Assembly: GCA_942491525.1 (NCBI GenBank)
Contig: CALOBW010000055.1
Coordinates: 328,106 to 392,105 of the forward strand
Reading direction: 5' to 3'
DNA length: 64,000 nucleotides
Origin: an uncultured Thermodesulfobacteriota bacterium
Lineage (GTDB): Bacteria; Desulfobacterota; Desulfomonilia; UBA1062
Position numbers: made by a program. Below are positions 18,001 through 21,000 of the stretch, piece by piece. How positions within the stretch are numbered: the stretch's first letter is position 1; every line of letters begins with the position of its first letter.

Positions 18001-21000
18001 TTTCGGTGTGGGGCTTGACGCCTCCAATGGCGGAGATGACGAAGATGGCGTTTTCGGCGGATTTGAGTCCCAAAATGGACTCTGATGAAAAGTTTGTATC
18101 ACCCGGCGTGTCGACCATGTTGATGCCGCAGGTCTGCCACTTGTAGCTGAAGATGGCGCTGAAGATGGATGATTGTCTCTTCTGCTCCTCCGGTTCAAAA
18201 TCAAGAACCGAGTTGCCCTCAAGTACTTTGCCCAGTCTGGTGGTGGCTTTGGCGTTGAACAGCATGGCTTCGCCCAGTGTTGTTTTTCCGGAGCGTGACT
18301 GAGAGACAAGAACTATATCCCGTATGTTTTCGGTAGCATAACTTCTCATTGAACCTCCCTTGTGAATTCCAGAATATCATCTCCAGCCTACTGAAAACAC
18401 ACAGTTAAGTCAAGCTGCACTCAATTTAAGCTTGCCTCGTAAAAGCGGCCTGTGTTATGCAATCCGGTTTTGCTCCGCGTGCAGTCAGGGAGCCGTTCTT
18501 GGCGGTTGTGGCCATGCAGCTGTTGGTATATCATGTGTCCATGGATATTGTTGGACATCAGGATCAGTTAAAACTTCTTAAGGGTTATATCGAGGCCGAG
18601 CGCGTGCCGCATGCCTTCCTGTTTGCCGGCATAGCCGGTCTCGGCAAGAGCAAGGTTGCACGGGAGTTTTTCCGTTCATTGAACTGCCGGCGTACTCCGG
18701 GCGATCCCTGCGGCAGCTGCAGCAGCTGCGTTAAGGCTGAAGCTGGCAACCATCCTGACTACATCCACTTTGAGCCGCCATCCAGCGGCAAGCAGATTGA
18801 CGTGCTGCGTGGCGTGCTGGCTGATATCCGGCTTAAGCCTTTTGAGGCGGCCCGGCGGGTGGTTGTGATTGAGCCGACTGAGGGGTTGAATAAGTCCAGT
18901 GCCAATGCGCTGCTTAAAGCGCTGGAAGAGCCGCCCGAGGCGACCATCTTTATCCTGGTGTCGCATAAGCCGAATCTGCTGCTGCCGACCATCATCTCGC
19001 GTTGTCAGCAGGTGCGCTTTGCTCCGCTGGAGGCTGGCGGTTATCACTCCGCCTCGGTGGATCCGCAGCTGCTGCGTTTGACCTCGGGGACGATTGGCGA
19101 GCTTGCGGCAGGTGATCAGGCTGAGATCTTGCGTTTCCGTCAGGGGGTGCTTGATATTCTGCGCGGCGGAGATCCGGTTGCTCTGGCCGCGTCAATCACG
19201 TCCAATGACAAGGAGAGTGTGCCGCTCTGGATTTCGGTTGTGGAATCGGTGCTGCGGGATGTCCTGCTCTACTTTGCCGGTGGTGATAAGCTGGTAAATG
19301 TTGAGATCGCCGATATTGAATTGCGGCACCTGCCCTCAAGTGAGCTTGATGAGATGGCGGATGCCATTCGTCGGCTGCGTCGGGGGGTGCAGGAGAATCT
19401 CAATCTGAAGGTGGCTTTCAGCGAGATATTCATGCTCATGGGTCGTCTGGCGGCCTGATTGTGTAGGCTTGCTCGCTTTTTAATTGTAATTTTGTTTTAG
19501 AATTGGATTTGGAATCCGGCTCAGTCAGTCTGGGGCATGCTTTGTGGTGAAGTATGTGTGTCTTTTGAGGTCGGCGCTGGTAAAAATAATCGTAAATTTT
19601 GGTAAAATAGTTCCTTTCTCTCTTTCCTGATGATCGTCTGCTAATATCTAACTGACTGAATTCATGGGTAAGGCTGTTTTGGCACGTAGATTGCTCATCT
19701 CTGCTGTAATTAGTTTGATGGCGTGGGCCTGTTTTTGGTTCTTGGACGCCGTATGAGAGGGTGGTTTGTTTGTAAATGAATTTATAATTTATTTACAAAT
19801 ATTTACAAATGTCTTGACAATGAAATAAAATTTCATAAATATGTAAAGATATAAATGAACCCTGTCGATAATTTGAATGTCGATCAGTAATTGATTGATA
19901 GTCAAGCATTGAACTTGATTTGGCAGTAAGCATCTTCACTGGGGTTTGTCCCGAAATGGGTAGTGAAGATGATGGTTTTATAAAAATTATTTGGAGGAAT
20001 TATAATTATGAATTTTTCAAAGGTGGAGATTTTTAAGAAAGTATTAGTTTTAATGGTTATGTCTGTATTGGCTCTTGGTTTGGGTGGTTGTCCTAATGGT
20101 TCTGATTCAGGCGATGTTCCCTATGTTCCTGGTCAGACTGAACAGAAGTCCTATGAGCCCAATCAGATTGGTGGTGCTGCTGCTGTTGCCGGTCTAATGG
20201 AATCTGCTGCTCCTGCTCCGGCGACCAAGAATATTAGTGCTGAAGTTGATGCGTTGACTGCTGCTATTAACACTCTTGTGGATGTTGTTCTGCCGACTAT
20301 TGGTGCTTCAGATATCCCCTCAATTCAGGATATTCTTGATGCCATTTATTTTGATGGTGTTACTGAATCAGCGTTTGAACTGTATGTAGCCATCATGGCT
20401 GAAATTAGTGATTTTGTAAGTGGTACTTATGAGGGTGGTGAGCCTGCTCTTAAAATGAACCTTGAGGCAATGGCAGCAGATCCTACCATTGATTGGCAGG
20501 GATTCCCTTATGTGAGTGATGGACTTGAGCTGTCCAAGATGATTTTGGAAATTGACAAGGATATTGATCCCGAAGCTTCTACTATTGATAATGTAAATGT
20601 TGTTCTTGGAAGAGCAGAGCTGGTAAGGCAGTTTGCATCAAATATTCAGGCTGATCAGGTAAAGTGGGCTAGAGATTTCTTGATTGACGGTGATAATCCT
20701 ATTCTCAATAAGCAGGATAATCCGGTGGCATACAACATTGCCTTGAATGTACTGAATGCTACAGGAGCAGGTCTTGAGCTTTCGCATGAGCAGGCACAGC
20801 TGTTCTCTGAGAATCTGGCAGACTGTGTAGATGCTTTGACTGATCCTGCTGGTCCGAGATATGGTGATTTTGCCAGGTCTTTCAAGAAGCTGGTGAAGGA
20901 TATTGTGGTTGGTGGCCAGCTTGAGATGGTTAAGATTGTTCTGTATGCTTTGACTGGCAATGCAGAGGTTTTGGAAATTGCATTTACGCGAGCATAATTT

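What the first reader, a model, noticed from the sequence alone, without database searches (positions are those of the whole stretch)
19578..20007. Near-consensus sigma-54 promoter with upstream TGGTAAAA repeats and a 310-nt structured leader in front of lipoprotein gene 1
- TGGCACG-TAGA-TTGCT (19680-19695) matches the textbook -24/-12 element.
- Two TGGTAAAA repeats spaced 22 bp apart lie 75-100 bp upstream, which is enhancer-like geometry.
- The first ATG with a good RBS is only at 20008.
- The intervening leader carries operator-like repeats (TTTGTAAAT-N13-ATTTACAAAT ATTTACAAAT), a TTGACA box, and a 10-bp perfect hairpin (19931-19971) followed by U-rich sequence 20 nt before the RBS.

This implies multilayered control, possibly an sRNA or attenuator made from the leader, or a dual promoter. 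Three sigma-54 activators are encoded in this window and could be the cognate regulators.
Basis: seen in the sequence. Interest (0 to 1): 0.55.

Follow-up and report, generated by a model that had tools for sequence, protein, structure and literature searches.

The report
Sigma-54 promoter before orphan lipoprotein gene
A textbook sigma-54 promoter sits unusually far (about 300 bases) upstream of an orphan lipoprotein gene, and the "repeats" around it are three copies of one tandem GTAAA-N5-GTAAA motif that probably binds a second regulator; this is an ordinary kind of promoter in an unusual layout.

Summary

**The sigma-54 promoter is very probably real.**
- TGGCACGTAGATTGCT (19680-19695) is the only exact consensus match in the window (expected 0.03).
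- It is the top hit of 128,000 positions with a matrix built from 87 Desulfovibrio sigma-54 promoters (18.7 bits).
- Similar sites precede two neighbouring lipoprotein genes: 21151 (17.0 bits) and 24321 (12.1 bits). No local shuffle gave three such spacers (0 of 5,000 or 20,000).

**The enhancer and attenuator readings are not supported.**
- The TGGTAAAA and ATTTACAAAT repeats are one motif, GTAAA-N5-GTAAA. It occurs at 19592-19606 (+), 19792-19806 (-) and 24534-24548 (+).
- These are the only three copies in 64 kb (expected 0.02). The motif equals the E. coli CpxR consensus.
- Tandem direct repeats suggest an OmpR/PhoB-type regulator rather than a sigma-54 activator.
- There is no terminator-like site and no Rfam match. 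The folding signal is equal on both strands, so it comes from DNA palindromes.

**Conservation cannot be tested.** Gene 1 has no homologue in 1.84 billion representatives. The nearest relatives lack the whole 17-kb segment.

Verdict: a new member of a known kind, of modest interest.

The parts
19678..19696 (+). Sigma-54 (-24/-12) promoter TTTGGCACGTAGATTGCTC. GG is at 19681-19682 and GC at 19693-19694. The inferred start site is about 19706.
   Evidence: It is the only exact TGGCAC-N5-TTGCW match in the window, with 0.03 expected. It scores 18.7 bits, rank 1 of 128,000 positions, with a matrix from 87 D. vulgaris promoters. The start site is inferred from the usual spacing and has not been measured.
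19592..19606 (+). Upstream GTAAA-N5-GTAAA box (GTAAATTTTGGTAAA), centred about -107 from the inferred start. A third GTAAA lies at 19580-19584.
   Evidence: 3 exact copies in the window against 0.02 expected, and 0 of 20,000 local shuffles gave 2 or more.
19769..19810 (.). Leader repeat array: TTTGTAAAT (+), a 13-nt spacer, then ATTTACAAAT twice. It contains the inverted GTAAA-N5-GTAAA box at 19792-19806 (-), centred about +93, and a 14-nt inverted repeat (19769-19782 / 19786-19799).
   Evidence: This element carries most of the folding signal of the leader (19760-19860: z -4.2 on +, -2.2 on -).
19802..19831 (+). Candidate proximal sigma-70-type promoter TTTACA-18-TAAAAT, overlapping the leader box. 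The TTGACA at 19814-19819 lacks a good -10 partner.
   Evidence: 10 of 12 matches, but 3 such sites were found against 2.3 expected, so it is not significant alone.
19820..19836 (.). Perfect 7-3-7 palindrome ATGAAAT-AAA-ATTTCAT.
   Evidence: Read; helix listed.
19931..19971 (.). Perfect 10-nt inverted repeat CATCTTCACT / AGTGAAGATG with a 21-nt spacer, ending 22 nt before the GGAGG. It is not terminator-like.
   Evidence: 19925-19985: z -2.75 on +, -5.5 on -. The terminator scan is negative.
19993..20010 (+). Ribosome-binding site GGAGG (19993-19997) and the ATG of lipoprotein gene 1.
20008..20997 (+). Gene 1: a 329-aa orphan lipoprotein (signal peptide, lipobox LGGC). A G+C-rich hairpin plus T-run terminator follows at about 21014-21047.
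   Evidence: It has no homologue other than itself in 5.8 billion and 1.84 billion protein sets and no Pfam, NCBIfam or PADLOC hit.
21151..21169 (+). Second sigma-54-like site CTAGGCATGTATATTGCTA, 127 nt before the ATG of lipoprotein gene 2 (21278).
   Evidence: 17.0 bits, rank 2 in the window.
24321..24339 (+). Third sigma-54-like site TCTGGCATCTGCATTGCAA, 298 nt before the ATG of lipoprotein gene 4 (24619).
   Evidence: 12.1 bits.
24534..24548 (+). GTAAA-N5-GTAAA box (GTAAAATAGTGTAAA) in the gene-4 leader, 71-85 nt before its ATG.

Best explanation
The 549-nt spacer after holB is the control region of an orphan lipoprotein gene. It holds two kinds of regulatory site.

1. **A genuine sigma-54 promoter (19678-19696).** RNA polymerase with sigma-54 would bind here in a closed complex. 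An ATP-driven enhancer-binding activator must open it, and that activator is not identified. Transcription would start near 19706 and give an mRNA with a 5' leader of about 300 nt.

2. **Two inverted copies of a tandem GTAAA-N5-GTAAA box.** They are centred at about -107 and +93, exactly 200 bp apart, and so bracket the promoter. The same box lies in the leader of paralogous lipoprotein gene 4. Tandem pentamers on a 10-bp repeat are how winged-helix response regulators of the OmpR/PhoB family (CpxR, PhoP, ArcA) read DNA. The likeliest role is therefore a second regulator. It could modulate the sigma-54 promoter or drive a proximal sigma-70-type promoter inside the leader.

**Shown:** the sequence elements, their statistics, and their recurrence before neighbouring lipoprotein genes.

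**Inferred:** the start site, activator dependence, protein binding to the boxes, and any role for the leader RNA.
For: **Sigma-54 site**
- It is the unique exact consensus match, with 0.03 expected.
- It is the top score in the window (18.7 bits), at the 75th percentile of leave-one-out scores of 87 curated D. vulgaris promoters.
- The five best hits in the window all lie in spacers facing a gene. They include a site 24 nt before flgB beside a FlbD-like activator gene, and a site between another activator gene and its neighbour.
- Three of the four island spacers carry a sense-strand site. This happened in 0 of 20,000 consensus-based and 0 of 5,000 matrix-based local shuffles.
- Three activators are encoded in the window.
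- Cell-exterior genes are the largest sigma-54 class in D. vulgaris (PMC4641369).

**GTAAA boxes**
- There are 3 exact copies, all in island spacers, against 0.02 expected.
- No local shuffle of 20,000 gave 2 or more copies. Any 5-mer in the same X-N5-X arrangement reached 3 copies in 6 of 3,000 shuffles.

**Gene arrangement**
- Genes 1, 2 and 3 are each followed by a terminator-like hairpin, which fits separate promoters.
Against: - A matrix score of at least 18.7 appears somewhere in 6% of shuffled 64-kb windows. The case therefore rests on position and recurrence, not on score alone.
- The promoter is 330 nt from the ATG, beyond all 80 D. vulgaris positions (median -77.5, most distant -326). 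The other candidate sigma-54 sites in this window sit at -29 to -41.
- No inverted-repeat activator site, no IHF-like site in this spacer, and no motif shared upstream of the three promoters.
- rpoN is not in the window.
- No OmpR-type regulator (Trans_reg_C domain) was found among about 50 ORFs scanned.
- The boxes occupy different positions relative to the two sigma-54 sites (-107 and +93 versus about +192).
- No comparative or expression data exist.
Confidence: 0.62

Rival explanations
1. Dual promoters. The sigma-54 site is real, but most gene-1 mRNA comes from a proximal sigma-70-type promoter inside the 'leader'. Candidates are TTTACA-18-TAAAAT at 19802-19831, or a -10-like TATAAA at 19850-19855. 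The adjacent GTAAA box would activate or repress it. The 19931-19971 hairpin would then be a 5'-UTR stem of the shorter transcript.
For: - The promoter scan finds a 10-of-12 site overlapping the leader box.
- In the gene-4 spacer the box lies only 71-85 nt before the ATG, a typical activator distance.
- A 330-nt promoter-to-ATG distance is extreme for sigma-54 promoters.
Against: - Sigma-70-like hexamers are no more frequent than in shuffles of this AT-rich spacer (3 against 2.3).
- The TTGACA box has no good -10 partner (read).
- The box has the opposite orientation in the two spacers.
Confidence: 0.3
2. The palindromic array in the leader (19769-19810) is the enhancer itself. An activator would bind downstream of the promoter, as reported for flagellar regulators.
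For: - In D. vulgaris a few activator sites lie 40-70 bp downstream of sigma-54 promoters, mostly for the flagellar regulator DVU1063 (PMC4641369).
- The window encodes a FlbD-like activator.
- The array contains a 14-nt inverted repeat.
Against: - The array centre is about 90 bp downstream of the -12 element, outside the 40-70 bp range.
- No similar array follows the gene-2 or gene-4 sigma-54 sites or the flgB site.
- The gene-4 box is about 190 nt downstream of its sigma-54 site.
- Direct pentamer repeats are not typical of Fis-type HTH activators (general knowledge).
Confidence: 0.15
3. The leader is a cis-acting RNA device (attenuator, riboswitch or ribosome-binding-site sequestering element) or yields a small RNA.
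For: - RNA 19706-20030 folds better than shuffles (z -4.0 to -4.2).
- A perfect 10-11 bp stem lies 22 nt before the ribosome-binding site.
- The minimum-energy fold pairs UUUGGAGGA (19990-19998) with 20013-20021.
- D. vulgaris has sigma-54-driven non-coding RNAs.
Against: - The reverse complement folds equally well (z -4.5), so the signal is Watson-Crick palindromes, not RNA-specific pairing.
- The signal is confined to two repeats.
- No terminator-like site and no Rfam match even at E <= 1.
- The ribosome-binding-site segment alone has z -0.2.
- The gene-2 and gene-4 leaders show no excess structure.
- One of 12 control windows reaches z -3.6.
Confidence: 0.12
4. The consensus match is a chance occurrence in a spacer, or part of a small ORF (19664-19756, 30 aa, hydrophobic). 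Gene 1 would then be transcribed by read-through from holB or from a sigma-70 promoter.
For: - 6% of shuffled windows reach the same matrix score somewhere.
- No terminator follows holB.
- A 30-codon ORF overlaps the site.
- The site is unusually far from the ATG.
Against: - The chance that such a hit falls in the 1% of positions that are island spacers on the sense strand, with two more sites in neighbouring spacers, is below 1 in 5,000.
- The small ORF has no ribosome-binding site before its ATG.
Confidence: 0.1

Closest known systems
Sigma-54 (RpoN) -24/-12 promoters of Desulfobacterota, as catalogued for Desulfovibrio vulgaris Hildenborough (Kazakov et al. 2015, PMC4641369)
   Same: - It has a GG-N10-GC core with the full TGGCACG-N4-TTGCT consensus.
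- Its score falls within the upper half of the curated set.
- The target is a cell-envelope protein, the dominant functional class of that sigmulon.
- Activator genes are plentiful in the genome segment.
   Different: - It lies 330 nt from the start codon, beyond every one of the 80 catalogued positions.
- No recognisable inverted-repeat activator site is present. The same was true for 23 D. vulgaris operons with sigma-54 promoters.
- The target gene has no homologue anywhere.
CpxR box (GTAAA-N5-6-GTAAA) of the E. coli envelope-stress regulon, and more generally the tandem-repeat sites of OmpR/PhoB-family response regulators
   Same: - All three copies match the published CpxR consensus exactly.
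- They are tandem direct repeats with a 10-bp period.
- They lie in front of envelope lipoprotein genes, which are envelope-related targets.
   Different: - The organism is a distant Desulfomonilia-like lineage. No CpxR or any winged-helix regulator was found in the window.
- Binding is untested.
- The boxes flank a sigma-54 promoter rather than a sigma-70 promoter. I know of no CpxR example of that arrangement (my own knowledge, not searched).
Overlapping or tandem sigma-54 and sigma-70 promoters, such as E. coli glmY (recalled from general knowledge, not checked here)
   Same: A sigma-54 site and sigma-70-like hexamers precede the same gene, possibly with a response-regulator site.
   Different: Here the two would be about 130 nt apart rather than overlapping, and the sigma-70 candidate is statistically unsupported.

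Membership tests
Sigma-54-dependent promoter | Conserved GG (-24) and GC (-12) doublets exactly 10 nt apart within TGGCAC-N5-TTGCW | tested here: met
   12 of 12 consensus positions at 19680-19695, unique in the window, 0.03 expected.
Sigma-54-dependent promoter | Matrix score within the range of validated or curated promoters and exceptional against background | tested here: met
   18.7 bits, rank 1 of 128,000 positions and the 75th percentile of the training set. However, 6% of shuffled windows reach this score somewhere. Significance comes from location and recurrence.
Sigma-54-dependent promoter | Lies in a non-coding spacer, oriented toward a downstream gene at a plausible distance | tested here: inconclusive
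   Orientation and spacer location are met. The -330 nt distance exceeds all 80 D. vulgaris cases (most distant -326, median -77.5).
Sigma-54-dependent promoter | Upstream activator-binding site (usually an inverted repeat 80-150 bp upstream), often with an IHF site | tested here: not met
   No dyad of 6 nt or more other than trivial AT palindromes in 19459-19680. No IHF-like site within 1 mismatch in this spacer. No motif shared with the gene-2 and gene-4 promoters. This does not disqualify the site: operons without a predicted activator site are reported.
Sigma-54-dependent promoter | Host encodes sigma-54 and enhancer-binding activators | tested here: met
   Three activators with Sigma54_activat domains and a flagellar flgB sigma-54 site. 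rpoN itself is not in the window.
Sigma-54-dependent promoter | Transcription start about 12 nt after the GC, dependent on rpoN | not testable with these tools
   Needs 5'-end mapping and an rpoN mutant.
CpxR-type / OmpR-PhoB-family tandem box | Two direct pentamer repeats GTAAA separated by 5-6 nt | tested here: met
   19592-19606 (+), 19792-19806 (-) and 24534-24548 (+). The motif is as published.
CpxR-type / OmpR-PhoB-family tandem box | Occurrence beyond chance and in regulatory regions | tested here: met
   3 copies against 0.02 expected, and 0 of 20,000 local shuffles gave 2 or more. The any-word control reached 3 copies in 6 of 3,000 shuffles.
CpxR-type / OmpR-PhoB-family tandem box | A cognate winged-helix response regulator is encoded and binds the box | tested here: inconclusive
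   No Trans_reg_C protein among about 50 ORFs of the window. The rest of the genome is not available and binding cannot be tested.
Intrinsic terminator / transcription attenuator | G+C-rich stem followed immediately by a U-run, with an alternative antiterminator | tested here: not met
   The scan finds 0 sites in 19400-20100. The U-run starts 4 nt after the 19931-19971 stem, whose loop is 19-21 nt.
Known cis-regulatory RNA or small RNA family (Rfam 15) | Match to a covariance model | tested here: not met
   No hit at gathering score in the window. In 19400-20100 the only hit is a spurious snoRNA match at E 0.89.

The most novel reading that the evidence does not exclude
Two inverted CpxR-type tandem boxes lie exactly 200 bp apart, about 19 helical turns, at -107 and +93. 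A winged-helix response regulator could bind both and loop out the sigma-54 promoter between them. That would couple an envelope-stress-type two-component signal to sigma-54 control of a cluster of fast-evolving orphan surface lipoproteins. The gene-4 product is only 40% identical to its counterpart in a close relative whose neighbouring proteins are 94-97% identical, yet its first 30 residues are identical.
Probability: 0.1. Interest if true: 0.55.

Novelty: new member of a known kind. Interest (0 to 1): 0.3.

Why it matters
If correct, the site is a clean example of sigma-54 control of the cell exterior in an almost unstudied Desulfomonilia-like lineage. Three of four adjacent, family-less lipoprotein genes appear to be sigma-54-dependent.

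The layout is unusual in two ways: the leaders are very long, and a second CpxR-like motif brackets the promoter. This suggests the promoter integrates two signals.

It also gives concrete binding-site predictions for an organism with no genetics. It does not challenge any current concept of sigma-54 regulation.

Tried and rejected
**Searches for relatives that led nowhere**
- **Gene 1 homologues:** a word-indexed search of 5.8 billion proteins and an exhaustive search of 1.84 billion representatives found only the protein itself.
- **Logan contig:** the only contig carrying gene 1 is 100% identical to the window and begins 1 nt before the ATG, so it holds no leader.
- **holB-anchored synteny, GTDB representatives:** the best match is 38% identical.
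- **holB-anchored synteny, protein database:** relatives at 63% and 50% identity keep the upstream genes. Downstream they have Smr and LysR directly after holB.
- **A close relative's contig:** an 8,187-bp NCBI contig carries orthologues of gene 3, gene 4 and the M48 peptidase, but it could not be fetched.
- **Metagenome scans:** a promoter-plus-palindrome DNA pattern and the gene-2 protein both gave nothing.

**Attempts to characterise the lipoproteins**
- AlphaFold on gene 1 alone gave pLDDT 39.8, which is unusable, so no fold search was run.
- Pfam, NCBIfam, PADLOC and PDB searches of the four lipoproteins found nothing.

**Motif searches around the promoters**
- No activator site shared by the three sigma-54 sites was found.
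- An IHF scan found nothing in this spacer.
- No direct repeats lie at the junctions of the 17-kb segment.

**Readings considered and rejected**
- Replication origin: cumulative GC skew rises steadily with no switch.
- Invertible switch: the 9-nt inverted repeat at 19521/19651 is about what chance gives (my own estimate), and no recombinase gene was found.
- Small hydrophobic ORF 19664-19756: it has no ribosome-binding site.
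Full report
**Observation.**
- TGGCACGTAGATTGCT lies at 19680-19695 (+).
- TGGTAAAA occurs at 19578 and 19600.
- A 14-nt inverted repeat lies at 19769-19782 / 19786-19799, followed by tandem TATTTACAAA at 19790-19809.
- TTGACA lies at 19814-19819.
- A perfect 10-nt inverted repeat lies at 19931-19940 / 19962-19971.
- GGAGG sits 10 nt before the ATG at 20008, the first start codon of a 329-aa ORF.
- Three sigma-54 activator genes are in the window, at 3391-4680 (-), 7383-8789 (-) and 47797-49209 (+).

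**Context.**
- The 549-nt spacer (36% G+C) follows holB (18457-19458; DNA_pol3_delta2).
- It precedes four consecutive lipoprotein genes: gene 1 at 20008-20997, gene 2 at 21278-23026, gene 3 at 23163-24239 and gene 4 at 24619-25665.
- Each gene has a signal peptide and a lipobox cysteine. None has a Pfam, NCBIfam, PADLOC or PDB match.
- This block has 45-50% G+C against about 60% in the flanks.
- Genes 1, 2 and 3 are each followed by a G+C-rich hairpin, with a T-run after genes 1 and 2. The genes therefore look like separate transcription units.
- Genes 3 and 4 are paralogues (26% identity, E 4e-14).
- holB relatives are annotated as Desulfomonilia or Deltaproteobacteria MAGs.

**Is the sigma-54 site more than chance?**
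- The exact consensus TGGCAC-N5-TTGCW occurs once in the window, with 0.03 expected.
- I built a weight matrix from the 87 sigma-54 promoters listed for Desulfovibrio vulgaris (PMC4641369, Additional file 6). I scanned both strands with it.
- The site at 19678 scores 18.7 bits. That is the best of 128,000 positions and the 75th percentile of leave-one-out training scores.
- Score alone is not decisive. 6% of dinucleotide-shuffled windows contain a site this good somewhere.
- Location and recurrence make the case. The next hit (17.0 bits, 21151) lies in the spacer before gene 2. A 12.1-bit site (24321) lies in the spacer before gene 4. Both are on the sense strand.
- In local shuffles of the four island spacers, three spacers never carried a site together. 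This held for 0 of 20,000 shuffles by consensus count and 0 of 5,000 by matrix score.
- The other strong hits act as internal positive controls. One site lies 24 nt before flgB, directly downstream of a FlbD-like activator gene. Another, at 7352 (-), lies between the second activator gene and the next gene. A third, at 57230 (-), lies before another gene.
- I conclude that the promoter is very probably functional. The lipoprotein block is probably a small sigma-54-controlled cluster. That fits the reported link between sigma-54 and the cell exterior.

**What is unusual.**
- The promoter starts 330 nt before the ATG.
- In the D. vulgaris list the median position is -77.5. Only 2 of 80 positions are beyond -300, and the most distant is -326.
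- The gene-4 site is at -298 and the gene-2 site at -127.
- The non-island sites in this window are at -29 to -41.
- Two of the three lipoprotein promoters therefore have exceptionally long leaders.

**The repeats.**
- GTAAA-N5-GTAAA occurs at 19592-19606 (+), inside the TGGTAAAA region.
- It occurs at 19792-19806 (-), which is the tandem ATTTACAAAT.
- It occurs at 24534-24548 (+), in the gene-4 leader.
- These are the only three exact copies in 64 kb, with 0.02 expected.
- Local shuffles of the AT-rich spacers never gave two copies (0 of 20,000).
- As a control for choosing the word after the fact, I counted any 5-mer in the same X-N5-X arrangement. It reached three copies in 6 of 3,000 shuffles.
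- Tandem pentamers on a 10-bp repeat are the reading mode of OmpR/PhoB-family winged-helix regulators (general knowledge). Sigma-54 activators with Fis-type HTH domains generally use inverted repeats.
- In this spacer the two boxes are inverted relative to each other. Their centres (19599 and 19799) are exactly 200 bp apart, at about -107 and +93 from the inferred start.
- The upstream regions of the three sigma-54 sites share no dyad or 7-mer.
- The region upstream of this promoter holds no real inverted repeat, and this spacer holds no IHF-like site.
- So the view that the TGGTAAAA repeats are the enhancer is not supported. A second regulator is the better reading.
- No winged-helix regulator is encoded among about 50 ORFs scanned in the window. 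The factor is unidentified, and membership in the CpxR regulon cannot be claimed.

**The leader as RNA.**
- RNA 19706-20030 folds better than shuffles (z -4.0; -4.2).
- The reverse complement does equally well (z -4.5). The pairing is therefore plain Watson-Crick palindromes.
- The signal comes from two elements. One is the box array (19760-19860: z -4.2 on +, -2.2 on -). The other is the 19931-19971 repeat, measured over 19925-19985 (z -2.75 on +, -5.5 on -).
- The ribosome-binding-site segment is not structured (z -0.2).
- The gene-2 and gene-4 leaders show no excess folding.
- One of 12 control windows reaches z -3.6.
- No terminator-like site is present. The U-run begins 4 nt after the stem, and the loop is about 20 nt.
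- Rfam gives nothing.
- An attenuator or small RNA is therefore unsupported, though not excluded.
- Sigma-70-like hexamers (TTTACA-18-TAAAAT, 19802-19831) overlap the leader box. They occur at the chance rate (3 against 2.3). A proximal second promoter remains a reasonable rival.

**Comparative evidence is unavailable.**
- Gene 1 has no homologue other than itself.
- The only other contig carrying it is identical to the window and starts 1 nt before the ATG.
- The nearest holB relatives (63% and 50% identity) keep the genes upstream of holB. Downstream they have Smr and LysR immediately after holB.
- In the window those two genes lie at 36836-38586.
- The spacer under study is therefore the left edge of a 17.4-kb lineage-specific segment. 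No junction repeats were found.
- Two metagenome scans found nothing.
- A close relative exists on an 8,187-bp NCBI contig, but it could not be fetched.
- That relative's gene-3 product is 97% identical and its M48 peptidase 94% identical.
- Its gene-4 product is only 40% identical overall, although the first 30 residues are identical. This points to rapid diversification of the mature lipoprotein.

**Conclusion.**
- The sigma-54 promoter reading is supported (my estimate is about 0.8).
- The enhancer, attenuator and cognate-activator readings are not supported.
- The most likely mechanism is an activator-dependent sigma-54 promoter giving a long-leader mRNA for an orphan lipoprotein. On top of it sits a second DNA-binding regulator that recognises CpxR-type tandem boxes bracketing the promoter. 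That regulator might act through a proximal promoter or through looping.
- This is a new member of a known kind, with an unusual but unproven architecture. Interest is modest.

Noticed in passing
window 24619-25665 (gene 4) versus protein P0133: A close relative's gene-3 product is 97% identical and its M48 peptidase 94% identical. Its gene-4 product is only 40% identical, yet residues 1-30 (signal peptide, lipobox, SGSESSDD) are 100% identical. This looks like a hypervariable surface lipoprotein with a conserved 5' end.
   Followed up: partly
window 19459-36835: In relatives L016 and L018, holB is followed directly by Smr (-) and LysR (+). In the window those genes are at 36836-38586. About 17.4 kb is therefore lineage-specific: the lipoprotein block, M48 peptidase, Hsp33, an HDOD response regulator, a 1273-aa hybrid sensor kinase, a CAAX protease and a hydrolase. 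No junction repeats were found.
   Followed up: partly
window 19460-25700: The four-gene lipoprotein block has 45-50% G+C against about 60% in the flanks. Genes 1, 2 and 3 are each followed by their own G+C-rich hairpin, with a T-run after genes 1 and 2. None of the four proteins has any family or solved-structure match.
   Followed up: partly
window 3243-3225 (-), 7352-7334 (-), 57230-57212 (-): Three further candidate sigma-54 promoters with short leaders were found. One lies 24 nt before flgB, beside a FlbD-like activator gene. One lies between the activator gene 7383-8789 and a TPR/AMIN protein gene. One lies before an unannotated 285-aa gene.
   Followed up: partly
window 19664-19756 (+): A 30-codon ORF encoding a hydrophobic peptide (MGKAVLARRLLISAVISLMAWACFWFLDAV) overlaps the sigma-54 element. 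No ribosome-binding site precedes its ATG, so it is probably spurious.
   Followed up: partly
window 21068-21127 and 23122-23143: The spacers before genes 2 and 3 share two 10-nt words, CATCCCCATG and TCTTGTTAGT, in a different order. Gene 3 has no sigma-54-like site. These may be elements of another promoter or regulator site.
   Followed up: no
locus L001 position 1 = window 20007: The only independent assembly contig carrying gene 1 (Logan ERR9670067, 100% identical) breaks exactly 1 nt before the ATG, at the AT-rich palindromic end of the leader. This is probably an assembly effect of the palindromes or low coverage.
   Followed up: no
window 19769-19783 and 24297-24310: TTTGTAAATGAATTT in the gene-1 leader recurs as TTTGTAATGAATTT about 14 nt upstream of the gene-4 sigma-54 core (a 1-nt deletion). 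The significance is unclear in AT-rich sequence.
   Followed up: no
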